From contig JBFXGS010000001.1 of the NCBI GenBank assembly GCA_050177775.1, positions 1 through 56,335 of the forward strand: a stretch of 56,335 bases of DNA. The letters are read 5' to 3'. Both the position numbers and the translations under genes were made by a program. The DNA is from Bacilli bacterium (lineage in GTDB: Bacteria; Bacillota_I; Bacilli_A; ML615J-28; CAG-698). Below, piece by piece: positions 22,619-56,335 of this stretch. Under the pieces are notes generated by a model, which was not told the DNA's origin, ran no database searches, and saw only the letters and a list, made by a program, of their open reading frames with translations. Each line of letters opens with the position of its first letter. Within the stretch, counting starts at the first letter, position 1.

Positions 22619-22676
22619 GATCGCGTTTACTGTCCGTTAGGGAAACCTAATTATCTATAAAGAAAAGGAGAAAAAG

Positions 22677-24221: not shown

Positions 24222-24246
24222 TTAATCCGAATTCGGAGGTAAGTCA

Positions 24247-25804: not shown

Positions 25805-25805
25805 T

Positions 25806-27761: not shown

Positions 27762-27774
27762 AGGGGGATTAAAA

Positions 27775-28737: not shown

Positions 28738-28751
28738 AGGGGAAAATATTT

Positions 28752-30455: not shown

Positions 30456-30464
30456 GGAAGCCTT

Positions 30465-32773: not shown

Positions 32774-32775
32774 CT

Positions 32776-32798
32776 AGTGCCATTAAATGGCACTTTTT
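32776..32798 (+). terminator. Intrinsic terminator ending the first operon
   Basis: AGTGCCAT-TAA-ATGGCACT hairpin followed by TTTT. Confidence 0.75.
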
Positions 32799-32802
32799 CA
32801 AT

Positions 32803-32836
32803 TTGTATATACAAGTTATTTTTTAAATGGTATAAT
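32803..32836 (+). promoter_or_regulatory. Promoter of the second operon with a perfect 12-bp palindrome operator candidate
   Basis: TTGTATATACAA (32803-32814) is a perfect palindrome overlapping the -35 region. TATAAT lies at 32831-32836. Confidence 0.6.
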
Positions 32837-32855
32837 TAAAAAAAGGAAGAGAAAT

Positions 32856-36052: not shown

Positions 36053-36062
36053 GAGAAAAGGC

Positions 36063-37565: not shown

Positions 37566-37566
37566 C

Positions 37567-41011: not shown

Positions 41012-41044
41012 TTATATCCTTGTGAAAACCTTTTCAATCTTTTC

Positions 41045-41073
41045 TTGACTAGACAAGTAAAGGAATGTATAAT
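41045..41073 (+). promoter_or_regulatory. Consensus sigma-A promoter of the giant lipoprotein gene, overlapping an operator-like near-palindrome
   Basis: TTGACT (41045-41050), 17 nt, TATAAT (41068-41073). CTTGACTAGACAAG (41044-41057) pairs at 6 of 7 palindrome positions. Confidence 0.75.
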
Positions 41074-41103
41074 AAAGTTATCATTAGATAAAGGAGGAAA
41101 CTA

Positions 41104-44100: not shown

Positions 44101-46485
44101 ATTCAATTAGTTTGGAACAATGCCTACCCTGGAAGTGGAATCATTGTTGATGGCACCTTAGCTGAACAACCGGCCGGCAATCCAAGCCCAGCGACCAATG
44201 GTTTTGATTTCACAAACTATACCGCTGCTTACTTTGCAGGATTAACCTTTAAAGTTCAATTTGTTTCGACAGTTACGGCAAAACCAGCTAAAATTGCTCG
44301 TCCGGTTGCAACGATTACCGATAACATTTTAGCTTGGGAGCAAGCAACAAATGCCGGAAGTTATGATGTTTATGTTGATGGCGTTTTGAAAGCCGCCAAT
44401 GTCGGCACATTAGTAACGGATACAACAACTTATAATTATGATTTACGTTTATTAAAATTAGATGATCAAGTACATACCATTCAAGTTCGTGCGATTACCG
44501 CAAACGTCCAAACGGCTGCCACTTCGGTTTTATCGGATCCCGTCAGCGTTCAATTCATTGCGCTTACCACTCCGGAAAACTTAGTGGTTAACGATACCGT
44601 TCTTTCTTGGGGCGTTGTTGATAAAGCCGCAACTTATGAAATTTGGGTCAATGATGTTTTAGTCGGCACATCGGAAACCAATAGTTTTGACTTAAAAGAC
44701 TTCTTTGGTTCTTCAACAAAAGATGTTCAAGTAAAAGCTTTACCGGGTGATGCTGATAAAATGTATGTGGCTTCGCCATTAACCGAAAAATTCCCATTTG
44801 GTGAACCAACGACGACTTATTTAACATTAACGCTTGAAACGCAACATGTCACACACACGACGGTTGATGAATGGATGATTAAGCGTAATGTTACCGTTCC
44901 TAATGGTGGTTTCTCGGGTTCAAATGAAATCTTCTTAATTGAAGACGCTTTTGCTTTCACAAGCTATGCGACCCCAACCGGAGTAATCACTGCCAACGGG
45001 ACCTTCTTATTGTTCGGTGCGGACGGTAAATTAAAAGCGGTTCGGACCATTATCAATAATCATCAATGGTTAGCAACCAACGATCCGCAAGTCAACAACG
45101 GTTGGACGACTTTAACCGGAGTAACCGCGGGGCAAGTAAAAGTTCAAGAAGTTACCCCGTTATTAGCTGAAGGCGACTTTATCCTTGTCACCACTGCGGG
45201 AACAAGCAAGCAAGAAGGAGCAACCTTAAATGCTCGTGATTTCTTAGCTTATCACTTTATGGGTTCTTGGGATACAACCATTGCCAGCGGTGAAATTTGG
45301 CGTAAGACGATTGATCAATTCATTAATCCATCAACAGTTACTTATAAATTATCGACTTACCCGGTTACTTATTACCTAAGTTTAGCTTTGGAAAGTCAAC
45401 ATATTACTTACACGACGGTTGATGAATGGATGATTAAGCGTAATGTTACCGTTCCTAATGGTGGTTTCTCTGGTTCAAATGAAATCTTCTTAATTGAAGA
45501 CGCTTTTGCTTTCACAAGCTATGCGACCCCAACCGGAGTAATCACTGCCAACGGGACCTTCTTATTGTTCGGTTCGGACGGTAAATTAAAAGCGGTTCGG
45601 ACCATTATCAATAATCATCAATGGTTAGCAACCAACGATCCGCAAGTCAACAACGGTTGGACGACTTTAACCGGAGTAACCGCGGGGCAAGTAAAAGTTC
45701 AAGAAGTTACCCCGTTATTAGCTGAAGGCGACTTTATCCTTGTCACCACTGCGGGAACAAGCAAGCAAGAAGGAGCAACCTTAAATGCTCGTGATTTCTT
45801 AGCTTATCACTTTATGGGTTCTTGGGATACGACCATTGCCAGCGGTGAAATTTGGCGTAAGACGATTGATCAATTCATTAATCCATCAACAGTTACTTAT
45901 GCTGTTGTCGGACGTCCGTATGTTAACAAACTGGCTTTAACTTTAGAGAGTCAACAAATAACTTATACGACGGTTGATGAATGGATGATTAAACGTAATG
46001 TTGTGGTAGCCGATGGCGGCTTTGCCGGATCAACCAGTATTTTCTTCATCGAAGATGCTTTTGCTTTCACAACCTTTGCAACGCAAACAGCCTTTGTCAC
46101 GGTTAACGGGACTTTACTATTATTTGGAGCGGATAACAAACTTAAAGCAATCCGAACCATTATCAATAATCATCAATGGTTAGCAACCAACGATCCGCAA
46201 GTCAACAACGGTTGGACGACTTTAACGGGAATAACTTCCGGTCAAGTAAAAGTTCAAGAAATAACCCCGTTATTAGCAGAAGGCGATTACATTATTCTTT
46301 CGAATAATGTTACTACCAAACAAGCCGGTGCTACTTTAAATCCAAGAGATTTCTTAGCTTACCACTTTATGGGTTCTTGGGATACAACCATTGCCAGCGG
46401 TGAAATTTGGCGTAAGACGATTGATCAATTCATTAATCCATCAACAGTTGCTTTTGCCATTAAGAAAGTCGTTGTTACTTTCTAA
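41104..46485 (+). CDS. Giant surface lipoprotein (1793 aa) with Ig-like, FN3-like and repeated unassigned domains
   Basis: Lipobox LTAC at the N-terminus. Three roughly 90-aa Ig-like (DUF5011-like) repeats, two FN3-like modules and three C-terminal 185-aa tandem repeats. AAGGAGGAAA RBS. Confidence 0.85.
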   Translation: MSNIKKFLFFLSLIIVVFSLTACKPKDTEKPSLVIPSPTITHVVNEDVDLLEDITATDNVSVAADITIEISDLGGYDKTKVGNYTVTIKATDKAGNFITRTITVNVTEAPILDTVAPTLTIGKPSITHEVNATVNLLADVTATDNIDAANDITISISNYNGYDKSVAGTYVITVKATDKSNNFSTATITVIVKDDVLPPMVTGAVTTITQLAGETVDLTKGLTGVDNKDGVNVIFTVTNLKDYNKDVPGTYTVEITASDSSDNHGVPFNRTVVVEEGYARAEMTSFAGDTIRYQALYNPQIMNSNTATGYNSAYDGHYVNVLSKEYLEWIIEYAPERLGAGVGWSVIAVTDSTDKIVYVRHWNSGEAYHDAQGNLVSAKSVNWSTGTIRTWTEEVGGQTVGMSNAKYSSAEMGMMMANINEWVPEGGHVFIFLNWTTIGEDESGNLISIANSATMPRSMGANYIMSSDENGDDVMDYAIGRTLKILDKQLTDNTIRQSFDPANPFPIISIPSVRYVTSTGIWKNRYTETVYLDEFNQTNPYNPLNGVFANDGKGTDITSSITYKIFRYQTTEQAYGLLTSLAIDDPRWAYYVDAAELWKKEENEVTLEQVMVDANNDYHFVVQYQVTANGHTDTAYKLIQIKAQVPDYIDLYGATDSVFSEAMGLQQRLDMNPNLENFGSMTTTEKGIIYTASAFKALTVFPALEKGVVVVVDPFYRIQLIRIVNGIAFELDGTGTAKTTDLTWISSQMLAGLDTLVPAGGYVMIYPEGLNGAVLTKALKAYYDYGYQSGVLTEALPTNGKVSVEMIIKEVKEVSTFIVNDVAPQININNALTNIFAVENNKASLVFSSAGGGAGFRLDTGKAYYYTKADYAVLSQHTDVVSSFTTLSPNKGVPWFRDGVIIVVDASGKFVQARVMTTSAAAEIHVDGTVVYGNAAVVALSETAKAAAGQANLTWDLVLPNAANTVAHGPLADIQSVIPEGGAFYILPGTANTAVRNYAIQLVWNNAYPGSGIIVDGTLAEQPAGNPSPATNGFDFTNYTAAYFAGLTFKVQFVSTVTAKPAKIARPVATITDNILAWEQATNAGSYDVYVDGVLKAANVGTLVTDTTTYNYDLRLLKLDDQVHTIQVRAITANVQTAATSVLSDPVSVQFIALTTPENLVVNDTVLSWGVVDKAATYEIWVNDVLVGTSETNSFDLKDFFGSSTKDVQVKALPGDADKMYVASPLTEKFPFGEPTTTYLTLTLETQHVTHTTVDEWMIKRNVTVPNGGFSGSNEIFLIEDAFAFTSYATPTGVITANGTFLLFGADGKLKAVRTIINNHQWLATNDPQVNNGWTTLTGVTAGQVKVQEVTPLLAEGDFILVTTAGTSKQEGATLNARDFLAYHFMGSWDTTIASGEIWRKTIDQFINPSTVTYKLSTYPVTYYLSLALESQHITYTTVDEWMIKRNVTVPNGGFSGSNEIFLIEDAFAFTSYATPTGVITANGTFLLFGSDGKLKAVRTIINNHQWLATNDPQVNNGWTTLTGVTAGQVKVQEVTPLLAEGDFILVTTAGTSKQEGATLNARDFLAYHFMGSWDTTIASGEIWRKTIDQFINPSTVTYAVVGRPYVNKLALTLESQQITYTTVDEWMIKRNVVVADGGFAGSTSIFFIEDAFAFTTFATQTAFVTVNGTLLLFGADNKLKAIRTIINNHQWLATNDPQVNNGWTTLTGITSGQVKVQEITPLLAEGDYIILSNNVTTKQAGATLNPRDFLAYHFMGSWDTTIASGEIWRKTIDQFINPSTVAFAIKKVVVTF
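44815..46482 (+). repeat. Three tandem 555-bp direct repeats inside the giant lipoprotein gene
   Basis: Anchor ACGACGGTTGATGAATGGATGATTAA at 44857, 45412 and 45967 (period 555). Copies 1 and 2 differ at 3 of 489 core positions. Copy 3 is diverged but contains blocks identical to copies 1 and 2. Confidence 0.95.
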
Positions 46486-46505
46486 GATGTTCAATGATTA
46501 AGTGA

Positions 46506-46533
46506 ATAAGTCGAGGAGCAATCCTCGACTTAT
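46506..46533 (+). terminator. Strong hairpin after the giant gene (weak or partial terminator, no clear T-run)
   Basis: ATAAGTCGAGGA-GCAA-TCCTCGACTTAT 12-bp stem, followed by CGTTAATC rather than a T-run. Confidence 0.5.
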
Positions 46534-46553
46534 CGTTAATCACGGAGGAAGAG

Positions 46554-47216
46554 ATGAAATTTGAAAAATTATTTAATAGCAAATTTTATATGTTTTTTGA
46601 ATGGATATATCGACTAATCCTAGTTAACTTATTATTTATCCTATGCTCTTTGCTTGGCTTAGTCATCTTTTCGATAATTCCCGCTTTCATTGCGATGACA
46701 ACCATAATCAAATCATATTCTTCCGACACCAATTTTCCGATTGTGAAAACATTTTGGCGCATCTTTATAAAACACTTTAAACAAAATCTTAATTTATCGT
46801 TGGTTTTTCTATTCTTGTTTTTGATATTTATTTTCAACACCTATTTTTTCTTCCTCGGTTGGCAAGAATATCAAGCCTTAATCAATGAGATAATCTTTAA
46901 TTTCACTCTTGTTTTAGATGGAGTAATGATTGTAGCATTTATTAATGCCATTTTTGTGAGAGTTTATTTTCCTAACTTAAATACCAAGAAAACCATTAAA
47001 TATGCCTTTGTTTTATTGAGAGCGCTACCCTTACCATTTGTTTTTATTTTCTTATTATTAATAATCGAATCAATTATCATTTATTATTTTCCCTACTATT
47101 TAATTATTTTAGGTTTTTCTTTATTGATGCTCATTATCAATACATTGATTAAAACGAAATATCAAAAATTGGTTGCTGAAGGAGTAGTTTCTCTTCAAGC
47201 CCAAGATTATGTTTAG
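46554..47216 (+). CDS. DUF624 (YesL-like) membrane protein, second copy
   Basis: 220 aa. LILVNLLFILCSLLGLVIFSIIPAFIAM pattern. GGAGGAAGAG RBS. Confidence 0.7.
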   Translation: MKFEKLFNSKFYMFFEWIYRLILVNLLFILCSLLGLVIFSIIPAFIAMTTIIKSYSSDTNFPIVKTFWRIFIKHFKQNLNLSLVFLFLFLIFIFNTYFFFLGWQEYQALINEIIFNFTLVLDGVMIVAFINAIFVRVYFPNLNTKKTIKYAFVLLRALPLPFVFIFLLLIIESIIIYYFPYYLIILGFSLLMLIINTLIKTKYQKLVAEGVVSLQAQDYV

Positions 47217-47235
47217 AGAACAAGGAGGTGGACTT

Positions 47236-50130
47236 ATGAAGAAAAAAATAGTCATCTTAATGCTTATTTTCTTAATAGCATTTTGTGGATACTTGATTAT
47301 CGATGCTTTACCAGTCGAAGCAAGTGAACCTCGCCCCTATCCTGGTTCGATTTATGAACAGGTTTTGCTTGAAAGCACTTCCTATGAAGAATATCTGAAG
47401 GATCTTTCGACCAACCAATCCGGAGCTTTCTTTTCCGTTAATGCCTCGCAAGGGTATACTTACTCGTTAAATGAAGCCAACGATGTTCCTTATGTGCTAA
47501 CGATTGATGGGCAAGAGGGTTTATTTATTCCCGAAGTTGGTGATGTTTCCTGGTCATTTAATGTTTTGGAAGCCGGGATTTATACCATCGCTTTAACTTA
47601 TTATCCAATTGAAGGGCGAAGTTCCGAAATAACAAGGGGTTTAAAAATTAATGGCGATTACCCTTTCTCGGAAGCAACCTCATTTGTTTTGCCAAGAATA
47701 TGGGAAGACGCCTATGATGTTGCTTCAAAAAGAGAAGACGGGAAGCACGATCAAAAACCGACTCAATTAGAAAAGTTAAAATGGAATGTTTTTCCAATCC
47801 GAGATACCGCGGGTTTTTACTATGGTCAGAGTTATCAGTTTGCTTTTGAACAAGGAGTAAACACCGTAACGTTAGTGGGAAATAAAGAACCAATGGTCCT
47901 TTCTTCTTTACAATTTAATCCTTATGTTGTGGAAAAAAACTACGAGGAAACTTTAACTTACTACCAAACACAAAATTATCAAGAAATAAATGTCGCTGAT
48001 TTTCATGATGGTGGTTATATTAAACAACAAGGCGAACATTCATTCGAAAAATCGACGCCTATTTTATCACCTGTTGCCAACTGGAGCAGTTATAAAGTTG
48101 ATCCATATGTTCAGTTTATGACCAGATATAATACCATTGGGGGCACAACTTGGCGCGTGGCCGGGGATTTTGTCAGTTGGGAAGTGGAAGTTTTCCAATC
48201 CGGACTCTATCAATTAAGTTTTAAAGTCTTACAAAACTATCGCCAAGGCATGTATTCAACGAGAATTTTATCCATCAATGGAAAAGTCCCCTTTAGTGAA
48301 TGCCGAAACATCCAATTTGCGTATGATAGCGATTGGCAAAATGTCACCCTCGGTAATGATGAAGGAGCTTACCTATTTTATTTTGAACAAGGAAAAAACA
48401 TTATTACTTTAGAAGCAACGATTGGCGTTTATGCCGATATTGTTCGGGTTGCTGAAGAAACCATCACCACTTTAAATTCTTTATATCGTAAAGTAGTCAT
48501 GATTGCCGGAGCAAATCCAAATGAATATCAAGATTATTTATTAGAAGAACGAATCGATGGCTTATTTACGATGATTGAGTCAAGCGCTGATAACTTACAG
48601 CATTGCATTGATCAAATAATCAATATATCCGGTGAAAGAAGTGCCCTAATTTCGAGTTTCGAAAGAACTTTATATCAAATGCGACAATTTGCGAAAAGCG
48701 AACGAAACATTCAAATTGGGTTAAAAGAATTGGATGACAACATTGCGGCTTTAGGAACATGGGTTATGACCATTTCCGAACAATCATTGGCTGTTGATTG
48801 TTTTTATATTCATGATAATCAAGTTAAATTACCAAAAGCCAAGACCAATTTTTTCCAAAAATTATGGCATGAAATTGTAATGCTGTTTGGAAGCTATGGA
48901 GCCAATACTTCACTAGAGAGCAGTGTTGAGACCGATGGGCCAACGATTACAGTATGGATATCTTCTGGCCGGGATCAATCCCAATTATTAAGGCAACTAA
49001 TTGATGAATCTTTTACATTGCAAAAAAATGTTAATGTTCGATTAAAACTAGTATCACAAACGGCTTTACTTCCTGCCACATTATCGGGAAACGGTCCCGA
49101 TGTGGCCATTGGTGTTGGTCAAAACATCCCCGTTAATTGGGGAATCAGAAATGCTTTATTAGATTTAACGCAATTTAGCGATTATGAAGAAGTCAAAACG
49201 TGGTTTCATCCTAGCGCGCTTACCCCATTTTCATTTCAAAATCGTGCTTACGGTCTTCCGGACACCCAAGATTTTTTAGTTTCGTTTGTCAGAACAGATA
49301 TTATGAGTGAATTAAATATGGAGGTTCCTGATTCGTGGAATGAAGTAATTGATGCTCTTCCACAACTTCAACGACAATATTTAGATTATTATTTACCAAA
49401 CTCCAAAGGGGCTTTGAGCTCTTTGCTTTATGCCATGGTTGCTCAAAAAGGTGGGCAATTGTATGATGAAGAAGGAACAAAAACCATGCTGACAGAAACA
49501 AATGCTACCGAAGCTTTCATTGACTTCACGACTTTTTTTAGTGATTATGGTTTTGAAATCAGCGCTAATTTTTCTAATCGTTTCCGTAGCGGTGAAATGC
49601 CAATTGGGGTTGCCAACTTTTCGTTATATAACACATTATCGGTTTTCGCTCCCGAAATCCGTGGCCATTGGGAATTTAAACCGCTACCCGGTTATGAAAT
49701 CAATGATGAAGTTAATAACCAAACGACTTCTACCGTTAGTGGAACCGTCATTTTAGGAAGCACCAAAGAGCCAAACGCAAGTTGGGAGTTTTTGAAATGG
49801 TGGTTAGGAAAAGAGACTCAATCCGGCTATGCCCGCGGAATGGAAGCTATTCTTGGGGCCGCCGCCCGCTATCCAACTGCCAATTTAGAAGCTTTTGAGC
49901 AATTGCCTTGGTCAACAAAAGACTATCAATTATTAACGGCTCAACGAGAAAAAGCTGTTGGTGTTCCGACTTTCCCGGGTGATTACATTGTGGGTCGTTA
50001 TATAGATAATGCCTTTAGAGCAAGCATTAATAACAACATTAACCCTAGGGATAGTTTGTTTGAATATTGCAAGAAAATCAATATTGAACTGGGAAGAAAA
50101 CGCCAAGAGTTTGGTTTGAATGGAGAGTAA
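47236..50130 (+). CDS. Large extracellular solute-binding protein with a duplicated CBM-like N-terminal module
   Basis: 964 aa from MKKKIVILML (signal or anchor). Two similar roughly 250-aa modules (VSWSFNVLEAGIYTIALTYYP...LKINGDYPFSEA and VSWEVEVFQSGLYQLSFKVLQ...LSINGKVPFSEC), then an SBP-like C-terminal half. AAGGAGGTGGA RBS. Confidence 0.75.
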   Translation: MKKKIVILMLIFLIAFCGYLIIDALPVEASEPRPYPGSIYEQVLLESTSYEEYLKDLSTNQSGAFFSVNASQGYTYSLNEANDVPYVLTIDGQEGLFIPEVGDVSWSFNVLEAGIYTIALTYYPIEGRSSEITRGLKINGDYPFSEATSFVLPRIWEDAYDVASKREDGKHDQKPTQLEKLKWNVFPIRDTAGFYYGQSYQFAFEQGVNTVTLVGNKEPMVLSSLQFNPYVVEKNYEETLTYYQTQNYQEINVADFHDGGYIKQQGEHSFEKSTPILSPVANWSSYKVDPYVQFMTRYNTIGGTTWRVAGDFVSWEVEVFQSGLYQLSFKVLQNYRQGMYSTRILSINGKVPFSECRNIQFAYDSDWQNVTLGNDEGAYLFYFEQGKNIITLEATIGVYADIVRVAEETITTLNSLYRKVVMIAGANPNEYQDYLLEERIDGLFTMIESSADNLQHCIDQIINISGERSALISSFERTLYQMRQFAKSERNIQIGLKELDDNIAALGTWVMTISEQSLAVDCFYIHDNQVKLPKAKTNFFQKLWHEIVMLFGSYGANTSLESSVETDGPTITVWISSGRDQSQLLRQLIDESFTLQKNVNVRLKLVSQTALLPATLSGNGPDVAIGVGQNIPVNWGIRNALLDLTQFSDYEEVKTWFHPSALTPFSFQNRAYGLPDTQDFLVSFVRTDIMSELNMEVPDSWNEVIDALPQLQRQYLDYYLPNSKGALSSLLYAMVAQKGGQLYDEEGTKTMLTETNATEAFIDFTTFFSDYGFEISANFSNRFRSGEMPIGVANFSLYNTLSVFAPEIRGHWEFKPLPGYEINDEVNNQTTSTVSGTVILGSTKEPNASWEFLKWWLGKETQSGYARGMEAILGAAARYPTANLEAFEQLPWSTKDYQLLTAQREKAVGVPTFPGDYIVGRYIDNAFRASINNNINPRDSLFEYCKKINIELGRKRQEFGLNGE

Positions 50131-50133
50131 GAA

Positions 50134-51090
50134 ATGAATAGAACACTTATTTCTCAAGAACAAAAACAATTAGAGCGTAAAAACCGTCGTCAAGAGTTTT
50201 GGAAACAGGTCAAAAAGAATCGCGTTTCCTATTTTATGGTTGCTCCGTTTTTAATCATTTTTTTCACATTCACGGTTTTGCCGGTCTTAATGAGTTTCTT
50301 TTTAAGTTTTACTTCTTTTGATATGCTTCAAGCACCGAAGTTTATTGGCCTTGATAACTATATTAATTTATTTTTAAATGATGAAGTTTTTTTAATCGCC
50401 ATAAAAAACACCTTTATTTTAGCGATTATTACGGGACCTGTTTCCTACGTGTTAGCTTTTTTGTTTGCATGGTTAATTAATGAATTGCCAAGAAAAATTC
50501 GCTGGTTTATGACGCTGGTTTTTTATGCTCCTTCCATTAGCGGAAGTGCTTATTTGCTTTGGCAATTAATTTTTTCATCCGATATGTATGGGGTCCTCAA
50601 TGCCTTTTTAATCAATTTAGGGATTATTAATGCTCCCATTTTATGGCTTGAGTCTCCTCAATATGCTTTGCCGATTTTAATCATTGTGCAATTATGGTTA
50701 AGTTTGGGAGTTACTTTTCTTGCTTTTATTGCCGGACTTCAAACGGTGGATCGAACTTTATATGAAGCAGCGGCCATCGATGGTTTACGAAATCGTTGGC
50801 AAGAATTATGGTTTATTACCCTTCCCCAAATGAAGTCTCAATTAATGTTTGGCGCGGTAATGCAAATAACCAATGCCTTAGGGATTGCTTCGGTTTCCAT
50901 AAATCTTTTGGGATTTCCGTCCGTTGAATATTCCGGACATACGATTGTAACGCATTTAATGGATTTTGGTTCAACAAACTCAACGCGTTTGGAAATGGGA
51001 TATGCTTCAGCTATTGCCACCATCCTCTTTTTCATCATGCTTGGTTCAAACCTAATTGTCCAAAAAATCATTAGGAGGGTGGGATCATGA
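50134..51090 (+). CDS. Sugar ABC transporter permease (CUT1)
   Basis: EAA loop EAAAIDGLRNRWQELWFITLP and 6 TM helices. Confidence 0.9.
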   Translation: MNRTLISQEQKQLERKNRRQEFWKQVKKNRVSYFMVAPFLIIFFTFTVLPVLMSFFLSFTSFDMLQAPKFIGLDNYINLFLNDEVFLIAIKNTFILAIITGPVSYVLAFLFAWLINELPRKIRWFMTLVFYAPSISGSAYLLWQLIFSSDMYGVLNAFLINLGIINAPILWLESPQYALPILIIVQLWLSLGVTFLAFIAGLQTVDRTLYEAAAIDGLRNRWQELWFITLPQMKSQLMFGAVMQITNALGIASVSINLLGFPSVEYSGHTIVTHLMDFGSTNSTRLEMGYASAIATILFFIMLGSNLIVQKIIRRVGS

Positions 51091-52046
51091 GAAAAAAACC
51101 ATCCTCAATCGTGATGACGGACCAAGAACGAAGTCAAATAATTCAAGATTTAAAAGTTCAAGAATTAGAATGGTACAAACAAAAACAAAAGTTCAAAAAA
51201 TATCGTCGTGTTCGCTTAAGTAGATCATTATGGGGCGATATTTTTGTGATTCTTGTTTTAGTCTTATTTGGTTCATTTAGTGCTTATCCTTTAGTTTATA
51301 CAGTTTCCAATTCCCTAAAGGGACTTGATGAAATCTTTGTCTTTCCGCCTCGTTTGTTTCCAAGAAATATTACTTTTCGAAACTTTATTGATTTATTCAA
51401 TTTAATCGGCAATACACAAATTCCCATTTCTCGTTATTTTATAAATACGTTGACCATTACTTTGTTTGGAACGGTTGGTCATGTGTTGCTATCATCTCTT
51501 TGCGCTTACCCATTATCAAAGCATCGTTTTCCCGGACGTCATTTAATCAATCAATTAGTGGTTTATTCGCTAATGTTTTCCGCAGCGGTTACGGCGATTC
51601 CATCCTATATGATTATCAGTTGGTTGGGCTTGATTGACTCGCAACTGGCGATAATTATTCCGGCTTTTGGGTTTACTTTAGGACTTTTCTTAATGCGTCA
51701 ATTCATGAATGTCATTCCCAATGAATTATTAGAAGCGGCTAAAATTGATGGTGCCAACGAATATCAAATCTTTTTTAAAGTCGTGATGCCGCTTGTGAAA
51801 CCGGCTTGGTTAACCTTAATTATTTTATTGTTCCAACAACTATGGGGAACCGATGGCGGGACATATATTTTTACTGAAAATTTAAAGCCCCTTAGTTATG
51901 CGCTTGGTCAAATTGTTGCAGGTGGAGTGGCAAGAACGGGAACGGCTGCCGCAGTGACCGTCATTATGTTGGTGGTTCCTATTTCGGTTTTTATTTTTAA
52001 TCAAACCAAGATGCTTGAAACAATGGCTCATTCTGGGTTGAAATAG
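51087..52046 (+). CDS. Sugar ABC transporter permease (CUT1)
   Basis: EAA loop EAAKIDGANEYQIFFKVVMP. ATGA overlap with the upstream gene. Confidence 0.9.
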   Translation: MRKKPSSIVMTDQERSQIIQDLKVQELEWYKQKQKFKKYRRVRLSRSLWGDIFVILVLVLFGSFSAYPLVYTVSNSLKGLDEIFVFPPRLFPRNITFRNFIDLFNLIGNTQIPISRYFINTLTITLFGTVGHVLLSSLCAYPLSKHRFPGRHLINQLVVYSLMFSAAVTAIPSYMIISWLGLIDSQLAIIIPAFGFTLGLFLMRQFMNVIPNELLEAAKIDGANEYQIFFKVVMPLVKPAWLTLIILLFQQLWGTDGGTYIFTENLKPLSYALGQIVAGGVARTGTAAAVTVIMLVVPISVFIFNQTKMLETMAHSGLK

Positions 52047-52055
52047 GAGGGACTT

Positions 52056-53534
52056 ATGAAAAAAATAGTTTTTCTCTTGCTTATATCAATCACAACGGTA
52101 ACTATGAGTTTTGTATCGGTTCATGGAGCTTATAATTATAGTCCCTTAGGCGAGGTCATTGCTTCCGCAGAAGCCTTGATTGCTACCAAAGTCATTGACT
52201 CATCTAATTTACGAACCGAAAATGATGAAAAAGCCAATGTGATTTTTGGAGCCTTGAGTGATATTTATTCGTATGATGGAAAAATTTATTTAGTTGATAA
52301 CTCCAACAATATCGTTCACATCTTAAATAGTGATTTTAAATACATAAAGAGTCTCGGTCAAGGCGTGTTGAAAAAACCGCAAGGAATATTTATTACTACA
52401 GATTACATATATATTGCCGATACGGATAATTTCCGAATCGCCATCTTTAATCATCAAGGGGAATATGTGAAAGAAATAACGGCACCCGATGATTCCACCT
52501 TCAAACAAAATCCTGATGATCAAACCGGATACGATTTTAAGCCGATTAAAGTTGCGGTTGATCGCACTGGCCGAGTTTATTCAATTGCTGATCAAATTTT
52601 TGAAGGAATTATTGATTTTAATCCCGATGGCAGCTTTTCTAGATATGTGGGAGCAAATTCGATTACTCTGTCTGTTTGGGATGCTTTTTGGCTCCAATTT
52701 ACTTCGGAAGAACAACGCCAAAACCAAGGGTATCGTTTAGCAACAACCTTTTTAAATTTAAACATTGATGACAAAGGATATTTATATACCTTATCGAGCG
52801 TTTCCGAAGGGTCCAAAGTTATCAAAAAATTAAATTATAAAGGCATTGATGTTTTAACAAGAAACGGGTATGTTCCCCAAGTTGGCGATGCCACTTTCTT
52901 AACAAATCAAAAGGGAATTCCCGAAGGACCGAGTCAATTAATTGACATTGATATCAGTGACAAAGGTTTTTATACAGTATTAGACAGTGTTCGCGGGCGC
53001 ATGTTTACCTATGATTTTGAAGGAAATCTTCTCTACATTGGTGGACAAATAGGGAACATTGGTGGTTCCACCAATAATCAAAGCACGCTCTTTATCAGTC
53101 CTAAAGCCCTTTGTTATCACCAAGACCAAATTATTGTCATTGATTCTTTAAACAAAAATTTGGTGGTCTTTGAGTATACTGAATTTGGAAGACTTGTTAA
53201 TGAAGCCACCAATCTATATCAATTGGGAAAGTATGATCAAGCCAAAACCGTTTGGGAACAAGTTTTAGTCTTAAACACCAATTATTATCTGGCTTATGCG
53301 GGAATCGGAAAAGCCCAACTGCGAGCCGGTGATTATCGACAAGCCATGAACAACTTAAAATTAGGTTATGACACCTATAATTATTCTCAAGCTTATCAAC
53401 AATATCGATATGATCAATTAACAAAAGTTTTCCCATTTATCATGGGATTTGCGATTATTGGCCTTTTTTATGGTTTTATGAAATCGATTAAGAAAGCGGT
53501 TGATAATGAAGTAAAGGAGGAAAAAGATGAATAG
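52056..53534 (+). CDS. Secreted NHL-repeat beta-propeller / TPR protein with a C-terminal TM anchor
   Basis: 492 aa. Signal peptide. NHL-like repeats (IYLVDNSNNIVHILN, IYIADTDNFRIAIFN, VYSIADQ, IIVIDSLNKNLVVFE). TPR-like YQLGKYDQAKTVWEQVL...GDYRQAMNNLK. TM helix near the C-terminus. Confidence 0.65.
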   Translation: MKKIVFLLLISITTVTMSFVSVHGAYNYSPLGEVIASAEALIATKVIDSSNLRTENDEKANVIFGALSDIYSYDGKIYLVDNSNNIVHILNSDFKYIKSLGQGVLKKPQGIFITTDYIYIADTDNFRIAIFNHQGEYVKEITAPDDSTFKQNPDDQTGYDFKPIKVAVDRTGRVYSIADQIFEGIIDFNPDGSFSRYVGANSITLSVWDAFWLQFTSEEQRQNQGYRLATTFLNLNIDDKGYLYTLSSVSEGSKVIKKLNYKGIDVLTRNGYVPQVGDATFLTNQKGIPEGPSQLIDIDISDKGFYTVLDSVRGRMFTYDFEGNLLYIGGQIGNIGGSTNNQSTLFISPKALCYHQDQIIVIDSLNKNLVVFEYTEFGRLVNEATNLYQLGKYDQAKTVWEQVLVLNTNYYLAYAGIGKAQLRAGDYRQAMNNLKLGYDTYNYSQAYQQYRYDQLTKVFPFIMGFAIIGLFYGFMKSIKKAVDNEVKEEKDE

Positions 53535-54216
53535 TGATATCAAAAAAAGTCGTTTTTTTCCTGGCATTAACTTTAAACAAGTTGTCAAGAACTTTATTCA
53601 TAATGCTTTTGGACATCCCCTTTATTTAATCACGCATCCCATCAAAGGGTTTGATGAGTTTAAACGTGAAAAAACTTCCAAAGGAGAAGTTGCCATTTTC
53701 TATCTTTTAATGATGATTATCACGCAAATTATAGCTTATAATAAAAATGGCTTTTTGATTAATCGCCAAAATCCCGATGATTTTAATTTGTTTTTAACGA
53801 TTGCCTTGGTGGTTTTTCCCGTTTTGATTGGTACCGTCGGTAACTGGTCCATAACGGTATTAATGGATGGAAAAGGAACAATGAAAGAAATCTTTCACGT
53901 CATTTGTTATGCTTTCTTTCCCTATGTTTGGTTAGGTTTATTATCAACATTAATAAGTAATTTTATTACGATAGATGAAGTGATCTTTTTTAATTTTTTC
54001 AGTGGATTGGGTGCTTTATTACTGGTGTACACTTTGTTTTTTGGGTTGATGGGAATTCATGAATATGGATTATTAAAAACCATTTTCATGATTTTGGCAA
54101 CCATTGTTGCCATTGCGGTTATTTTATTCATCATGCTACTCTTCTTATCCTTAATTCAACAAGTTTACTCGTACTTATCCTCGGTTTATCGTGAATTTGT
54201 GATGAGGTTCCTATGA
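53527..54216 (+). CDS. Yip1-domain multi-pass membrane protein
   Basis: 229 aa with 5 hydrophobic helices after a roughly 50-aa N-terminal segment (HPIKGFDEFKREK), typical of bacterial YIP1 family proteins in this type of cassette. Confidence 0.6.
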   Translation: MNSDIKKSRFFPGINFKQVVKNFIHNAFGHPLYLITHPIKGFDEFKREKTSKGEVAIFYLLMMIITQIIAYNKNGFLINRQNPDDFNLFLTIALVVFPVLIGTVGNWSITVLMDGKGTMKEIFHVICYAFFPYVWLGLLSTLISNFITIDEVIFFNFFSGLGALLLVYTLFFGLMGIHEYGLLKTIFMILATIVAIAVILFIMLLFLSLIQQVYSYLSSVYREFVMRFL

Positions 54217-56335
54217 TGGAAAAAGATACCATCGTCGCATACCGACCACAACCGTGGTATAAAAGATTATGGATTAATTTAAAAACGAGCATAAAAGATT
54301 ATATCCATAACTATCGCTTTCCTTGGAAAAAATTAATCATTGTTTTAGTATTAGCTTTAATCATTTTAACGGTTTATTTAGCGGTTATTTTTAACCAAAT
54401 TGTTGTCCCCATCAGAGCTGCTTATGATAAAACAACGTTTATAAAGGCGGATGATTACATCAGCGACCATGGCCAAGAAACTATCATCGAGAATAATCAC
54501 TTCCGTTTTACTTTAAACAACCAAACGACGCTTTTTAGTATCACCGATAAAGCGACGCAAGAAGTGTGGTCAAGTAATCCAAGCACGACCTCCAAACGCT
54601 TTTTAGAACCTCTAATTGTTTATTATGCCGGCTCATTGGGTGCGGCGGCATCGTTGGGGGCTTATGAAAAGGCAATAGAATTTGATGACTTCTATTTTCG
54701 AAAACAAGGAAATACTCTTGAAATTCTCTATGAAATTGGCGGCAAAAAAGATGTGGACCGCACGGACTTTCCGGAAATAATGACTGATGCACGGATGCAA
54801 GAAAAAATATTATCCCACCTTGAAGCGGGAAGCACGGCCTATCGCCGCGTTACGGAACAAATGTATACCCTTGGTGAACTGAAAGGTGAACAAGTTTGGA
54901 AATTAAAAGACGGGATAACGACTGTCCCTTTACGAAATCTATATAAAATCTTTTATGAAGATTGCGGGTACACAGCCGAAGATTTACAATTTGATTTGGA
55001 ATTAAGTGGCATTGTGTATGAAGACATTTATCCTTATATTGAAATTGCGATTCGTTACACATTGACCGATGAAGGCTTTACCGCCGAAATTATAAATGAA
55101 TCCATTTTCGAAAAAGAAAAATATCCTCTCGTTTATTTAGATTTATTGCCCTTTTTTGGTTGTGCAACAATCAATGATGTTGGTTATTCACTAATACCCG
55201 ATGGCAGTGGCGTCATCATTGATTTCAATAATAATCGTTCCTTTGCCATGCCGTACCAACAACGCGTTTATGGAAAAGAACTGGCCATCAACACAAGAAT
55301 AAAAGAAAATCCTTCCGAAAAAATCAACTTTCCCATTTTTGGGATGAAGCGAAATAAGCAAGGATTTATCGCAATTGGTGAAGATGGCGTTGAGATGGCT
55401 TCCATTTTGGGAAGAACCAGCACGGAAGATAATCCATATAACCAAACATATTATCGTTATCAATTTCGAGAAAGCGAAGTATTCACTTTTGCGGCCATCA
55501 ACAGTTCCACAAACATTGTGCAATGGACGGATTGGTATTCATTGGCAAACTTTAAAGTCAATTACCAATTTTTACATGAAGATGAGGCCAGCTATTCAGC
55601 CATGGCCAAGCAATATCGTCAATACTTACTTGCGAACGATATGATAAAAGAGGCGGATACAACTTCTTCAGTCATGATTGATTTAACTTTGCTGGGCGGG
55701 TATGTTGATTATGACAATTTTATTGGTATCCCTTATTCTGAGGTTCGAAGCCTGACGAGTGCCGACCAAGTTAAAATCATTATTGAAGAATTGATTAAAT
55801 TTGGAATTACCGATGTCCGAATCATCTATTCGGGGTGGGGAAATGATGGCATCAAACCGACCTTCATGGGTAAGATTAATTACAACCGTTTAGTTGGAAA
55901 GAAGAGCCAACTTGAAGCTTTAGCAAACCAATATGGTTCGATTGTCTATTTTGAAGCAAATGTTGCGAAAGTATTTACCGGAAAAGACTTTAATGAAAAA
56001 GATTTGGCGGTGCGCGATGTCTTTGGAAAAACGGTGGAGAATTATGCTTTCAACGAAGCAACGTTATATGTTGATCGGCAATCAATGGTGGAATACTTAT
56101 TAAAACCCACGACCTATTTAGAAACCCTTAATAATTTAGCTTCTTTTTACCAAAAACGTGGTTTTAAAAACCTCAGCTTAACGGATTTTGGATCTTATAT
56201 GTATGGTACTTATCAAAAGAAAGATACCATTTTACGGACAGAAACGTTAAATTTAATAAGTGAAGCCAGTGAAAAACTTTTAGAATTTGACAAAGTAATG
56301 TTACGAAACCCGAATGTTTTGGCGTTATCAAATGC
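54213..56335 (+). CDS. N-terminally membrane-anchored large protein, DUF5696-like (putative extracytoplasmic glycan-active enzyme), 3' end outside the window
   Basis: Frame 3 is open from ATG 54213 to the window end (at least 707 codons), confirmed by translating it manually (MMEKDTIVAYRPQPWYKRLW..., TM helix LIIVLVLALIILTVYLAVIF). Absent from the ORF track because it has no stop. ATGA-type overlap with the Yip1 gene stop. Confidence 0.7.
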   Translation, partial: MMEKDTIVAYRPQPWYKRLWINLKTSIKDYIHNYRFPWKKLIIVLVLALIILTVYLAVIFNQIVVPIRAAYDKTTFIKADDYISDHGQETIIENNHFRFTLNNQTTLFSITDKATQEVWSSNPSTTSKRFLEPLIVYYAGSLGAAASLGAYEKAIEFDDFYFRKQGNTLEILYEIGGKKDVDRTDFPEIMTDARMQEKILSHLEAGSTAYRRVTEQMYTLGELKGEQVWKLKDGITTVPLRNLYKIFYEDCGYTAEDLQFDLELSGIVYEDIYPYIEIAIRYTLTDEGFTAEIINESIFEKEKYPLVYLDLLPFFGCATINDVGYSLIPDGSGVIIDFNNNRSFAMPYQQRVYGKELAINTRIKENPSEKINFPIFGMKRNKQGFIAIGEDGVEMASILGRTSTEDNPYNQTYYRYQFRESEVFTFAAINSSTNIVQWTDWYSLANFKVNYQFLHEDEASYSAMAKQYRQYLLANDMIKEADTTSSVMIDLTLLGGYVDYDNFIGIPYSEVRSLTSADQVKIIIEELIKFGITDVRIIYSGWGNDGIKPTFMGKINYNRLVGKKSQLEALANQYGSIVYFEANVAKVFTGKDFNEKDLAVRDVFGKTVENYAFNEATLYVDRQSMVEYLLKPTTYLETLNNLASFYQKRGFKNLSLTDFGSYMYGTYQKKDTILRTETLNLISEASEKLLEFDKVMLRNPNVLALSN

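What the first reader, a model, noticed from the sequence alone, without database searches (positions are those of the whole stretch)
46554..56335. Seven-gene cassette of mostly unknown function: DUF624, CBM-SBP, two permeases, NHL/TPR, Yip1, DUF5696-like
The genes are tightly coupled, with ATGA and multi-nt overlaps at 51087, 53527 and 54213. They combine a CUT1-type ABC importer with three extracytoplasmic or membrane proteins that have no assigned role. These are a signal-peptide NHL beta-propeller with TPRs and a C-terminal anchor, a Yip1-type five-helix membrane protein, and a large N-terminally anchored protein. The last gene is an open frame of at least 707 codons that the supplied ORF track misses because it has no stop in the window. 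I recall this same gene order being conserved in Clostridia and Paenibacillus genomes without a characterised substrate. Here it lies directly downstream of the giant lipoprotein, and I saw no obvious promoter of its own. Only a hairpin without a T-run separates them.
Basis: partly seen in the sequence, partly recalled or inferred. Interest (0 to 1): 0.65.

Follow-up and report, generated by a model that had tools for sequence, protein, structure and literature searches.

The report
Conserved dual-ABC glycan uptake cassette
The seven genes are real and are the front part of a larger, widely conserved gene cassette: two sugar ABC importers wrapped around three uncharacterised surface or membrane proteins, one of which is a distant relative of GH129 glycosidases, and no member of this cassette has been studied.

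Summary
All seven ORFs, their overlaps and every domain call hold: DUF624, SBP, two permeases, NHL/TPR, Yip1, and DUF5696 at E 4e-101.

In relatives it continues past the window end with two more ABC permeases and a second SBP.

The eight-gene core is giant CBM-bearing SBP, 2 permeases, NHL/TPR, Yip1, DUF5696, 2 permeases. It keeps this order in 50 of 51 loci with enough flank. The 51st has frameshift-split ORFs. Taxa include Izemoplasmatales, Acholeplasmataceae, Paenibacillus, Bacillus, Lachnospiraceae, Oscillospiraceae, termite Treponema and Anaerolineae.

NHL/TPR and Yip1 are fused into one protein in several genomes.

DUF5696 is an N-terminally anchored ectodomain homologous to GH129 glycosidases (HHalign 99.4%, Foldseek E 3e-28). 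The GH129 acid/base is absent, and the candidate nucleophile Asp is kept in only 44 of 80 orthologues. Catalysis is therefore unproven.

The cassette sits beside different enzyme sets in different genomes: xylan, mannan, beta-1,2-glucan, MurNAc and, in this window, amino-sugar genes. It behaves as a substrate-agnostic capture and import module.

The DUF624 gene and the giant lipoprotein are clade-specific additions. I found no literature on DUF5696. I class it as a new variant of a known kind (Gram-positive glycan-utilisation ABC systems).

The parts
41045..41073 (+). Best sigma-70-like promoter match upstream of the giant lipoprotein gene. It is a candidate promoter for the whole run of genes.
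   Evidence: TTGACT-17-TATAAT, 11 of 12 matches. This is a consensus match only. The number of sites in the region is no higher than in shuffles.
41104..46485 (+). Giant lipoprotein of 1793 aa (LTAC lipobox, weak Ig-like hits, three 555-nt tandem repeats). It is a clade-specific upstream partner of the cassette.
   Evidence: It is syntenic with the cassette only in Izemoplasmatales-like loci: L002, L010-L012, L016-L018 and L051.
46503..46540 (+). Conserved intercistronic stem-loop without a U-tract, between the giant gene and the DUF624 gene.
   Evidence: dG -28.4 kcal/mol, z -5.7. It is present at the same place in 7 related loci, with 11 pairs of which 4 show compensatory changes. It occurs once in the window and has no Rfam match.
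46554..47216 (+). DUF624 (YesL/MusI-type) multi-span membrane protein, a likely accessory of a CUT1 importer.
   Evidence: PF04854 at 6e-14. NCBIfam MusI_fam scores only 32 bits against a cut-off of 160. It has at least 4 hydrophobic helices. It is found in only a subset of loci, at varying positions.
47236..50130 (+). Giant membrane-anchored solute-binding protein. Order of parts: N-terminal TM helix, two CBM35-like beta-sandwiches, a four-helix stalk, then a CUT1 oligosaccharide-binding domain. The mechanical ORF start is 47209.
   Evidence: - Pfam SBP_bac_1/8 at aa 593-878.
- AF2 model with pLDDT 87.5 and pTM 0.80 gives the domain layout.
- Best PDB sequence match for the SBP domain is the sophoro-oligosaccharide SBP Lin1841, 4.5e-33. 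A CBM35 region of 5x7g matches at 1.6e-8.
- Foldseek returns oligosaccharide SBPs at about 1e-17.
- The RBS supports a start at 47236.
50134..51090 (+). ABC importer permease A1 (MalF/UgpA-like).
   Evidence: PF00528. The EAA motif YEAAAIDG...ITLP is conserved in 77 orthologues.
51087..52046 (+). ABC importer permease A2 (MalG/UgpE-like).
   Evidence: PF00528 at 3e-15. The EAA motif LLEAAKIDGA is conserved. ATGA overlap with A1.
52056..53534 (+). Extracytoplasmic six-bladed NHL beta-propeller plus TPR repeats, with a signal peptide and a C-terminal TM anchor.
   Evidence: - Pfam NHL/DUF5128/TPR.
- A profile of 31 orthologues against the PDB hits PknD-sensor-derived 'Pizza' propellers at 1e-61, PknD at 6e-25 and consensus TPR at 2e-39.
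- Hydrophobic segments at aa 4-22 and 457-475.
53527..54216 (+). Yip1-domain five-helix membrane protein.
   Evidence: PF04893 at 1.2e-15 with the full-length profile. Five hydrophobic helices. It is fused to the NHL/TPR protein in L005, L040, L053, L058, L070, L086, L167 and L168.
54213..56335 (+). First 707 codons of a DUF5696 protein of about 870 aa. Layout: cytoplasmic N-terminus, one TM helix (aa 41-59), then a GH129-superfamily ectodomain (beta-sandwich, (beta/alpha)8 barrel, C-terminal beta domain). The gene is truncated by the window end.
   Evidence: - PF18952 at 4e-101.
- Full-length orthologue P0002 is 76% identical and 869 aa long.
- AF2 model has pLDDT 88.7 and pTM 0.85.
- Foldseek hits ZgGH129 at 3e-28 and NagBb at 2e-22, then GH101, GH31 and GH36.
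- HHalign against GH129 gives 99.4% probability, E 4e-20.

Best explanation
The region is the front two thirds of a conserved glycan capture-and-import cassette.

**Core composition.** The eight genes are a giant CBM-bearing membrane-anchored SBP, permeases A1/A2, an NHL-TPR propeller, Yip1, DUF5696 and permeases B1/B2. A second lipoprotein SBP lies next to the core. Together these encode two CUT1-type ABC importers, driven by an ATPase encoded elsewhere, built around three accessory proteins.

**Proposed working.**
1. The CBM35-like modules of the big SBP hold a polymer or long oligosaccharide at the membrane surface.
2. The membrane-anchored GH129-like DUF5696 ectodomain binds it and probably trims it.
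3. The fragments are handed to the two SBPs and imported through the two permease pairs.
4. The NHL-TPR propeller, tethered to (and in some genomes fused with) the Yip1 membrane protein, holds the assembly together. This would parallel the Yip1-family protein YknW, which modulates assembly of the YknXYZ ABC transporter.
5. In this organism's clade a DUF624 membrane protein and a giant lipoprotein are added in front. The whole run is probably transcribed from the 41045 promoter, through a conserved stem-loop that lacks a U-tract.

**Shown.** Domain identities, topologies, retained EAA coupling motifs, gene order across phyla, the NHL-Yip1 fusions, and homology of DUF5696 to GH129.

**Inferred.** Physical complex formation, catalytic activity of DUF5696, the substrate here (amino-sugar-rich glycans, judged from neighbouring genes), and co-transcription.
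For: - **Domains.**
- **Topology.**
- **Importer competence.** All four permease families keep EAA motifs. The SBP domain resembles oligosaccharide SBPs.
- **Continuation past the window.** A 76-84% identical relative carries permB1, permB2 and SBP2 downstream of DUF5696, with 4-11 nt overlaps.
- **Synteny.** 50 of 51 loci with enough flank keep the canonical order, and the exception is frameshifted. The cassette is also present in Anaerolineae.
- **Fusions.** NHL-TPR and Yip1 are fused in at least 8 loci. The fusion is colinear with both window proteins at 4e-66 and 3e-24.
- **DUF5696 and GH129.** Sequence profile to PDB 1e-10. Foldseek 3e-28, with TM-score normalised to the target 0.68-0.74. 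HHalign 99.4%.
- **Glycan-utilisation context.** Flanking genes include GH10 (12 of 120 flanking ORFs), GH3, GH43, GH67, GH130, GH26, GH32, GH94 and NamZ, plus AraC, LacI and GntR regulators. The window itself carries GH84, GHL10, NAGPA, NanE and GntR upstream.
- **Yip1 precedent.** PMC4887032.
- **Tight coupling and RBSs.**
Against: - No ABC ATPase lies in the window or in any of the loci examined, so energisation is assumed by analogy with shared MsmX/MsmK-type ATPases (established knowledge, not tested here).
- The canonical GH129 acid/base (NagBb E478) aligns to a gap, with no acidic residue nearby.
- The best candidate for the nucleophile (D658 of P0002, the D of LSLTDFGS in the window) is present in only 44 of 80 orthologues. 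HHalign instead places NagBb D435 on a Ser/Ala column.
- The family-invariant acidic residues (D330 in PDGSG, D/E356, E763) lie outside the canonical positions.
- The cassette accompanies chemically unrelated substrates. This is hard to reconcile with one linkage-specific hydrolase.
- No experiment or paper on any member was found.
- Complex formation is inferred only from synteny, coupling and fusion.
Confidence: 0.55

Rival explanations
1. DUF5696 is a catalytically dead GH129-like 'pseudo-glycosidase'. Under this reading NHL-TPR, Yip1 and DUF5696 form a purely structural or binding scaffold or gate. They would dock glycan chains and the SBPs onto the two permease pairs, and all hydrolysis would be done by the variable enzymes encoded nearby.
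For: - No canonical catalytic acid is family-invariant: D658 in 44 of 80, D713 in 48 of 80, D725 in 68 of 80.
- NagBb E478 aligns to a gap, and the Ca2+-site His/Asp of LHLDGW is replaced by IYSGW.
- The cassette is constant while the flanking GH sets change: xylan, mannan, beta-1,2-glucan, MurNAc and amino sugars.
- The most conserved block (PDGSG...YGxD) lies in the N-terminal beta-sandwich, not in the barrel.
Against: - ZgGH129 also lacks the NagBb acid/base and uses other residues, including one from the N-terminal domain of the partner monomer (PMC5698469). Divergent catalytic machinery therefore has precedent in this superfamily.
- Every orthologue keeps at least two of the barrel acids.
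- The invariant D330, D/E356 and E763 could form a new active site. I could not map them in 3D.
Confidence: 0.3
2. The NHL-TPR/Yip1/DUF5696 trio is a sensing or regulatory module. It would detect extracellular glycan, as the NHL propeller of the PknD kinase sensor does, and modulate transporter activity or signalling rather than take part in capture or transport.
For: The propeller's closest solved relatives are PknD-sensor-derived NHL propellers. AraC regulators and response regulators are frequent neighbours.
Against: None of the three proteins has an output domain (kinase, HTH or cyclase). The trio is embedded between, and translationally coupled to, transporter genes in every locus. The regulators nearby are of varied, ordinary types.
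Confidence: 0.08
3. The genes are merely adjacent: an ordinary sugar ABC operon next to unrelated membrane proteins, with no shared function.
For: Each component family also occurs on its own elsewhere. No ATPase is in the locus.
Against: The eight-gene order is identical in 50 of 51 loci, across Bacillota, wall-less Bacilli lineages, Spirochaetota and Chloroflexota, at 24-76% protein identity. Start and stop codons overlap. Two of the proteins are fused in several genomes.
Confidence: 0.02

Closest known systems
CUT1-family ABC sugar importers of Gram-positive glycan-utilisation loci (for example MalEFG/MsmEFGK type, with a shared MsmX/MsmK ATPase)
   Same: - MalF- and MalG-like BPD_transp_1 permeases with EAA loops.
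- SBP_bac_1/8 oligosaccharide-binding proteins anchored to the membrane.
- No ATPase gene in the operon.
- Neighbouring intracellular GHs and AraC, LacI or GntR regulators.
   Different: - Two permease pairs and two SBPs occur in one operon.
- One SBP is about 960 aa, with two CBM35-like modules and a helical stalk.
- Three extra conserved proteins (NHL-TPR, Yip1, DUF5696) are inserted between the permease pairs.
GH129 glycoside hydrolases: B. bifidum alpha-N-acetylgalactosaminidase NagBb (PDB 5wzn), and the GH129-like Zobellia 3,6-anhydro-D-galactosidase DagB/ZgGH129 (5opq, 8rzk)
   Same: - The same three-domain architecture: beta-sandwich, (beta/alpha)8 barrel and C-terminal beta domain.
- Demonstrable homology (HHalign 99.4%, E 4e-20; Foldseek E 3e-28 and 2e-22; profile HMM 1e-10).
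- The IYSGWGNDG block aligns to the NagBb beta2 motif LHLDGWAQPGYDN.
   Different: - About 12-16% identity.
- An N-terminal TM anchor and an insertion of about 110 aa in the N-domain.
- NagBb E478 has no counterpart.
- The nucleophile counterpart is uncertain and not family-wide.
- The Ca2+-site His/Asp are absent.
- NagBb is described as acting on imported Tn antigen and DagB as periplasmic, neither as part of a transporter operon.
YknWXYZ of Bacillus subtilis (Yip1-family YknW as an accessory subunit of an ABC transporter)
   Same: A bacterial Yip1-domain polytopic membrane protein encoded with, and needed for assembly of, an ABC transporter (PMC4887032).
   Different: YknYZ is a MacB-type exporter with a membrane-fusion protein. 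Here the partners are type I importers, and the Yip1 protein is tethered to an NHL-TPR propeller. No sequence comparison with YknW was made.
MusEFGK2I of Corynebacterium glutamicum and YesL/YteU of B. subtilis (DUF624 proteins attached to CUT1 importers)
   Same: A DUF624 membrane protein encoded immediately next to SBP and permease genes. There is a weak MusI_fam match at 7.5e-8.
   Different: The score of 32 bits is far below the NCBIfam cut-off of 160, so it is not a MusI-family member. The gene is present in only some versions of the cassette and at different positions. The role of MusI is taken from my own knowledge, not from a paper read here.
Bacteroidota Sus-like utilisomes (SusCD plus surface glycan-binding proteins and surface GHs)
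   Same: Functional analogy only. Both are a genomically modular, substrate-swappable surface capture, trimming and import apparatus encoded with variable CAZymes.
   Different: There are no homologous components. Import is through ABC importers in a cytoplasmic membrane rather than a TonB-dependent outer-membrane transporter.

Membership tests
Pfam DUF5696 (PF18952) | HMM score above the gathering threshold (25.6 bits). | tested here: met
   339.8 bits, E 4e-101, for the window fragment. 468.9 bits over profile positions 5-612 for the full-length orthologue P0002.
Pfam Yip1 (PF04893) | HMM score above gathering (28.6 bits) and a five-helix membrane core. | tested here: met
   58.3 bits, profile positions 2-172 of 173. 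Five hydrophobic segments.
NHL-repeat six-bladed beta-propeller with TPR | Repeated NHL blades detectable by profile, plus TPR helices. | tested here: met
   The single sequence is weak (NHL 27 bits, DUF5128 28 bits, TPR below cut-offs). The orthologue profile hits 5-6 blades of Pizza/PknD/TRIM NHL propellers at 1e-61 to 6e-25, and consensus TPR proteins at 2e-39. No structure was predicted.
CUT1 ABC importer | Two BPD_transp_1 permeases carrying the EAA coupling loop. | tested here: met
   PF00528 for both window permeases. EAA motifs are conserved in all four permease families of the cassette.
CUT1 ABC importer | Cognate cluster-B/D sugar-binding protein. | tested here: met
   SBP_bac_1/8. 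PDB matches to Lin1841 at 4.5e-33 and other oligosaccharide SBPs.
CUT1 ABC importer | MalK/MsmX-type nucleotide-binding subunit. | tested here: not met
   No Walker A or LSGGQ motif in any frame of the window, and none in the cassette of any locus. An ATPase encoded elsewhere is expected for Firmicutes CUT1 systems but could not be checked.
CAZy GH129 | Homology and the three-domain fold (beta-sandwich, (beta/alpha)8 barrel, C-terminal beta domain). | tested here: met
   HHalign probability 99.4%, E 3.9e-20, over P0002 residues 240-857 against NagBb 1-634. Foldseek E 3e-28 and 2e-22, with TM-score normalised to the target 0.68-0.74.
CAZy GH129 | Catalytic nucleophile Asp (NagBb D435, ZgGH129 D486) at the end of beta4. 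| tested here: inconclusive
   HHalign, at low local confidence, puts D435 on a Ser/Ala column (S655). By strand position the nearest Asp is D658 (the window's LSLTDFGS). It is present in only 44 of 80 orthologues.
CAZy GH129 | Acid/base Glu (NagBb E478). | tested here: not met
   E478/E479 align to a gap between N699 and P700. The neighbouring columns are G/N/T/S, G/P and N/Y. ZgGH129 also lacks this residue (PMC5698469).
CAZy GH129 | Ca2+-site His/Asp in the beta2 motif LHLDGW. | tested here: not met
   The aligned block is IYSGWGNDG, with consensus xYxGWxNxG. That these NagBb residues bind metal is inferred from the quadruple-mutant sequence 5wzq and a review statement on Ca2+.
CAZy GH129 | Demonstrated glycosidase activity. 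| not testable with these tools
   This needs an enzyme assay.
NCBIfam MusI_fam (NF052431) | HMM score above the curated cut-off (160 bits). | tested here: not met
   32.4 bits. The protein does pass Pfam DUF624 (52.4 bits against 24.2).

The most novel reading that the evidence does not exclude
The eight-gene core may encode a single membrane supercomplex, a Gram-positive or wall-less-bacterial 'utilisome'. In it, two ABC importers would be physically bridged by the NHL-TPR/Yip1 unit and by a GH129-derived subunit. That subunit would have traded linkage-specific hydrolysis for a generic role: holding or feeding long glycan chains to the transporters, or using a new active site built from the invariant PDGSG/D356/E763 residues. 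This would be a previously unrecognised class of accessory machinery for type I ABC importers, portable between substrates.
Probability: 0.2. Interest if true: 0.8.

Novelty: new variant of a known kind. Interest (0 to 1): 0.6.

Why it matters
Uptake of complex glycans by Gram-positive and wall-less bacteria is usually drawn as one SBP, two permeases and a shared ATPase. Surface capture is attributed to separate enzymes.

This cassette adds three conserved, uncharacterised proteins and a second importer in a fixed order. It is common. The DUF5696 profile finds 6341 clusters (50% identity) at E <= 1e-3, and a single-pattern scan found 386 relatives in species-representative genomes. These include gut Lachnospiraceae and Oscillospiraceae, soil Paenibacillus, termite Treponema and sediment Izemoplasmatales.

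Working out its function would:
- assign roles to DUF5696, to bacterial Yip1 proteins and to an NHL-TPR family;
- possibly found a new GH129-related enzyme family or a pseudo-enzyme class;
- improve prediction of fibre (xylan, mannan, beta-glucan) and cell-wall-glycan use from genomes.

Tried and rejected
- **Source contig.** The window's own Yip1 protein is found only on a 5-kb Logan contig, so the downstream end could not be read from the same organism. The 76-84% identical MAG locus L002 was used instead.
- **Literature.** Searches for DUF5696, PF18952, GHL1-3 and Yip1 together with ABC, xylan or PUL terms found nothing on this cassette. The MusI/DUF624 search was swamped by unrelated 'Musi' hits.
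- **Wasted search.** My last homologue search used a 59-aa fragment of 5opq to recover ZgGH129 relatives and returned nothing. I recovered GH129 sequences instead by scanning metagenome contigs with the NagBb fragment printed by HMMER.
- **Pfam link to GH families.** A Pfam scan of full-length DUF5696 at E <= 10 shows no second family, so the GH129 link is invisible to Pfam.
- **Giant lipoprotein.** No informative PDB sequence match. TRF found no tandem repeats, but the repeat finder found 3 x 555 nt.
- **RNA families.** Rfam has no match in 40000-56335.
- **Promoter and terminator scan.** Counts do not exceed shuffles, so the scan gives no evidence for or against an internal promoter.
- **Rejected: a single fixed substrate** for the cassette, because the flanking enzymes differ between loci.
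- **Rejected: degenerate second permease pair**, because the EAA motifs are conserved.
- **Not possible.** I could not map conserved residues onto the 3D model because coordinates are not exposed.

Full report
**1. Checking the observation**

The seven reading frames are present on the + strand exactly as described. The last one is an open frame of 707 codons from 54213 to the window end.

The junctions are very tight:
- ATGA at 51087.
- An 8-nt overlap, ATGAATAG, at 53527.
- ATGA at 54213.
- Spacers of 3 and 9 nt at the other two junctions.
- An AGGAGG-type ribosome-binding site before every start.

One correction concerns the second gene. Its mechanical start at 47209 is probably wrong. AAGGAGG lies 7 nt before the ATG at 47236, and the database version of the protein is 964 aa.

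- DUF624: 6e-14.
- SBP_bac_1/8: confined to aa 593-878 of the 973-aa protein.
- BPD_transp_1: found twice.
- NHL/DUF5128 plus TPR.
- Yip1: 1.2e-15.
- DUF5696: 4e-101, matching only profile positions 19-459 of 612, so the gene is cut by the window end.

- The big SBP has one N-terminal helix.
- The NHL/TPR protein has a signal peptide and a C-terminal helix at aa 457-475.
- Yip1 has five helices.
- DUF5696 has a basic cytoplasmic N-terminus and one helix at aa 41-59.
- The upstream 1793-aa protein has a lipobox.

The 68-nt spacer before the DUF624 gene holds a strong stem-loop (dG -28.4 kcal/mol, z -5.7) with no T-run. The best promoter-like match in the region is at 41045. Promoter-like matches overall are no more frequent than in shuffles.

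**2. The cassette is larger than the window shows**

The closest full-length DUF5696 is 76% identical and 869 aa long. It comes from a 'Bacilli bacterium' MAG, and further relatives are Izemoplasmatales, Acholeplasmataceae and Mariniplasma. The window therefore probably comes from an Izemoplasmatales-like member of the Bacilli.

In that MAG the order is giant lipoprotein, DUF624, big SBP, two permeases, NHL/TPR, Yip1 and DUF5696, as in the window. It then continues with two more BPD_transp_1 permeases (402 and 341 aa), which overlap their neighbours by 4-11 nt. A second SBP (a lipoprotein with a Big_2 domain) and an aBig_2 lipoprotein follow.

Mariniplasma anaerobium and a Clostridiales MAG show the same core.

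A scan of one genome per species found 386 relatives through a single peptide pattern, and I fetched the best 80 with 10-kb flanks. I built HMMs from the window proteins and labelled the ORFs of all loci.

The order big SBP, permA1, permA2, NHL/TPR, Yip1, DUF5696, permB1, permB2 is kept in 50 of the 51 loci that have enough flank. The exception has frameshift-split ORFs in the same order.

The taxa include:
- Izemoplasmatales, Acholeplasmataceae and Haloplasmataceae.
- Paenibacillus, Bacillus and Alkalihalobacillus.
- Lachnospiraceae, Oscillospiraceae and Herbinix.
- Termite-gut Treponema.
- Anaerolineae.

The second SBP lies either just before the big SBP or after permB2. DUF624 and the giant lipoprotein accompany the core only in the window's clade, and DUF624 sits elsewhere in a few others.

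The DUF5696 profile finds 6341 clusters (50% identity) at E <= 1e-3 and 3819 at E <= 1e-30. This is a large family.

**3. The parts**

*The transporters.*
- All four permease families keep the EAA coupling loop, so both pairs look like working type I importer membrane domains.
- No nucleotide-binding-domain motif occurs anywhere in the window or in the cassettes examined. As in other Firmicutes CUT1 systems, the ATPase is presumably shared and encoded elsewhere. That step rests on general knowledge, not on a test here.

*The big SBP.*
- It models with confidence (pLDDT 87.5). The layout is a TM helix, two beta-sandwiches (about aa 60-230 and 260-395), a bundle of four long helices (397-514) and an SBP fold (518-960).
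- The SBP part is closest to oligosaccharide binders: the sophoro-oligosaccharide SBP Lin1841 at 4.5e-33, then binders of cycloisomalto-, manno- and malto-oligosaccharides.
- The second sandwich matches the CBM35 region of 5x7g at 1.6e-8, and some homologues carry Pfam CBM_35.

*NHL/TPR and Yip1.*
- A profile of 31 NHL/TPR orthologues hits six-bladed NHL propellers derived from the PknD sensor at 1e-61, PknD itself at 6e-25, and consensus TPR proteins at 2e-39.
- In at least eight loci the NHL/TPR and Yip1 genes form one ORF.
- The 714-aa protein of Paenibacillus harenae is colinear with the window NHL/TPR protein, including its C-terminal helix (4e-66), and then with Yip1 (3e-24). The Anaerolineae locus and L168 show the same fusion.
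- This fusion is the strongest evidence that at least these two proteins work as one unit.

**4. DUF5696 is a GH129 relative with non-canonical residues**

Evidence for homology:
[quoted passage not shown] The matches fall in the N-terminal, central and C-terminal parts.
- The AlphaFold model of the full-length orthologue is confident (pLDDT 88.7, pTM 0.85).
- The best structural matches are those same two proteins (E 3e-28 and 2e-22, TM-score normalised to the target 0.68-0.74). GH101, GH31 and GH36 follow.
- I recovered NagBb and 57 homologues from gut metagenome contigs and checked the numbering (D435 in AYLDVF, E478 in SSEEVS). I then aligned the two families profile to profile. The result was probability 99.4% and E 3.9e-20, over residues 240-857 against 1-634.

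Homology is therefore established. Catalysis is not.
- Across 80 orthologues, the only invariant acidic residues are D330 (in a PDGSG loop of the N-terminal sandwich), D/E356 and E763.
- NagBb E478 aligns to a gap with no acid nearby.
- NagBb D435 is placed, at low local confidence, on a Ser/Ala column.
- The Asp that sits just after the modelled beta4 strand is D658, which is the D of LSLTDFGS in the window. It is present in 44 of 80 orthologues. D713 is present in 48 and D725 in 68, in clade-specific combinations.
- The Zobellia enzyme also lacks the NagBb acid/base and depends on other residues, one of them from the N-terminal domain of the partner subunit (PMC5698469).

Divergent machinery therefore has precedent in this superfamily. 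I could not inspect model coordinates to see whether the invariant residues form a pocket.

**5. Context and substrate**

I made a Pfam census of 120 ORFs flanking the cassette in 45 loci. It gave:
- GH10 twelve times.
- AraC-type regulators twelve times.
- GH3 eight times.
- Response regulators seven times.
- GH43 five times.
- GH32, GH26, GH130, NamZ and UxuA at lower counts.

Individual loci show distinct enzyme sets.

| Locus or group | Flanking enzymes | Implied substrate |
|---|---|---|
| Lachnospiraceae | GH10-GH3-GH67 | xylan |
| Paenibacillus | GH10 plus a GDSL esterase | xylan |
| Bacillus caseinilyticus | GH10-GH43 | xylan |
| Treponema | GH130 | mannan |
| Mariniplasma | NamZ-NagZ-kinase-MurQ-NagB | MurNAc |
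| L168 | GH94 1,2-beta-oligoglucan phosphorylase plus a glycoamylase | beta-1,2-glucan |

In the window, the upstream 20 kb carries the following:
- GH84.
- NanE.
- A GNAT-GntR regulator.
- GHL10.
- A NAGPA phosphodiester glycosidase.
- Three DUF4127 paralogues.
- A second SBP/DUF624/permease set.

The local substrate is therefore probably an amino-sugar-rich glycan. This is an inference from neighbours only. The cassette itself behaves as a portable, substrate-agnostic module.

**6. How it most likely works**

The best-supported reading is a surface capture-and-import apparatus.
1. The CBM-bearing, membrane-anchored SBP and the lipoprotein SBP feed two ABC importers.
2. The membrane-anchored GH129-like ectodomain binds the incoming glycan next to the transporters and probably trims it.
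3. The NHL-TPR propeller, tethered to Yip1, organises the assembly.

There is a precedent for a bacterial Yip1-family protein acting as an assembly factor of an ABC transporter: YknW of YknWXYZ (PMC4887032).

The main rival is that DUF5696 is a non-catalytic scaffold or glycan-holding subunit. The unconserved catalytic positions and the changing substrates both favour this rival. Sensing-only and chance-adjacency readings fit the data poorly.

The conserved stem-loop before the DUF624 gene is found in seven related loci, with four of its eleven pairs showing compensatory changes. It has no Rfam match. It is consistent with read-through transcription plus transcript processing or stabilisation, but this is untested.

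**7. Novelty and verdict**

I found no paper mentioning DUF5696 or this gene arrangement. The library does not cover subscription journals.

The system is a new variant of a known kind. The known kind is the Gram-positive glycan-utilisation locus built on CUT1 ABC importers. The new elements are:
- the fixed dual-importer architecture;
- the giant CBM-SBP;
- the conserved NHL-TPR/Yip1/DUF5696 trio;
- the recognition that DUF5696 is a GH129-superfamily branch with altered catalytic positions.

Interest is moderate to high (0.6). The cassette is widespread and untouched experimentally, and it offers directly testable hypotheses. It remains within the general logic of sugar-uptake operons.

Noticed in passing
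window 46503-46540, and the same position in L002, L010, L011, L012, L016 and L017: The stem-loop between the giant lipoprotein gene and the DUF624 gene is conserved in seven related loci. It has 11 pairs, 4 of them with compensatory changes, and no U-tract. It occurs once in the window and has no Rfam family. It may be a processing or stabilising element, or a partial terminator.
   Followed up: partly
window 21026-41011: Upstream of the cassette lies an island typical of amino-sugar or cell-wall-glycopolymer use. It holds three DUF4127 paralogues (21026-22492 on the - strand, 36000-37565, 39476-41011), a NAGPA phosphodiester glycosidase (37567-39507), GHL10 (32787-35090), GH84 (28752-30455) and NanE (30465-31133). 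Three ORFs have no Pfam match (27069-27761, 27775-28737, 35090-36052).
   Followed up: partly
window 22677-26672: A second, ordinary CUT1 set (514-aa SBP, its own DUF624 protein, two permeases) lies 20 kb upstream. The genome therefore pairs DUF624 proteins with more than one importer.
   Followed up: no
window 31121-32773, compared with L002 18501-20154: In the window, two GNAT domains and a GntR/UTRA regulator form one 550-aa ORF. In the related MAG the same domains are two genes overlapping by 8 nt. This is either a real fusion or a sequencing or frameshift difference.
   Followed up: no
window 44817-46226 (inside the giant lipoprotein gene 41104-46485): Three tandem copies of a 555-nt unit (185 aa), at 95% and 76% identity to the first copy. 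TRF missed them because the period exceeds its limit.
   Followed up: partly
window 47209 versus 47236: The first-in-frame ATG used by the ORF list gives a 973-aa SBP overlapping the DUF624 gene. The ATG at 47236 has AAGGAGG 7 nt upstream and matches the 964-aa database protein, so the overlap is probably not real.
   Followed up: yes
L002 12607-13815, and the equivalent gene in L008, L009, L012, L016-L019 and L051: In the Izemoplasmatales-like clade, permease B1 carries a K/E/Q-rich cytoplasmic N-terminal extension of about 110 aa (386-476 aa, against about 300-315 aa elsewhere). DUF5696 in the same clade has a Trp/Lys-rich amphipathic helix before its TM anchor. These may be clade-specific cytoplasmic contacts.
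   Followed up: no
L168 3673-8367 and L004 15179-20445: The same cassette sits next to a GH94 1,2-beta-oligoglucan phosphorylase plus a glycoamylase in one genome. In Mariniplasma it sits next to a complete MurNAc/GlcNAc salvage set (NamZ, GH3, BadF-type kinase, MurQ-like SIS, NagB). This suggests cell-wall scavenging by a wall-less bacterium.
   Followed up: partly
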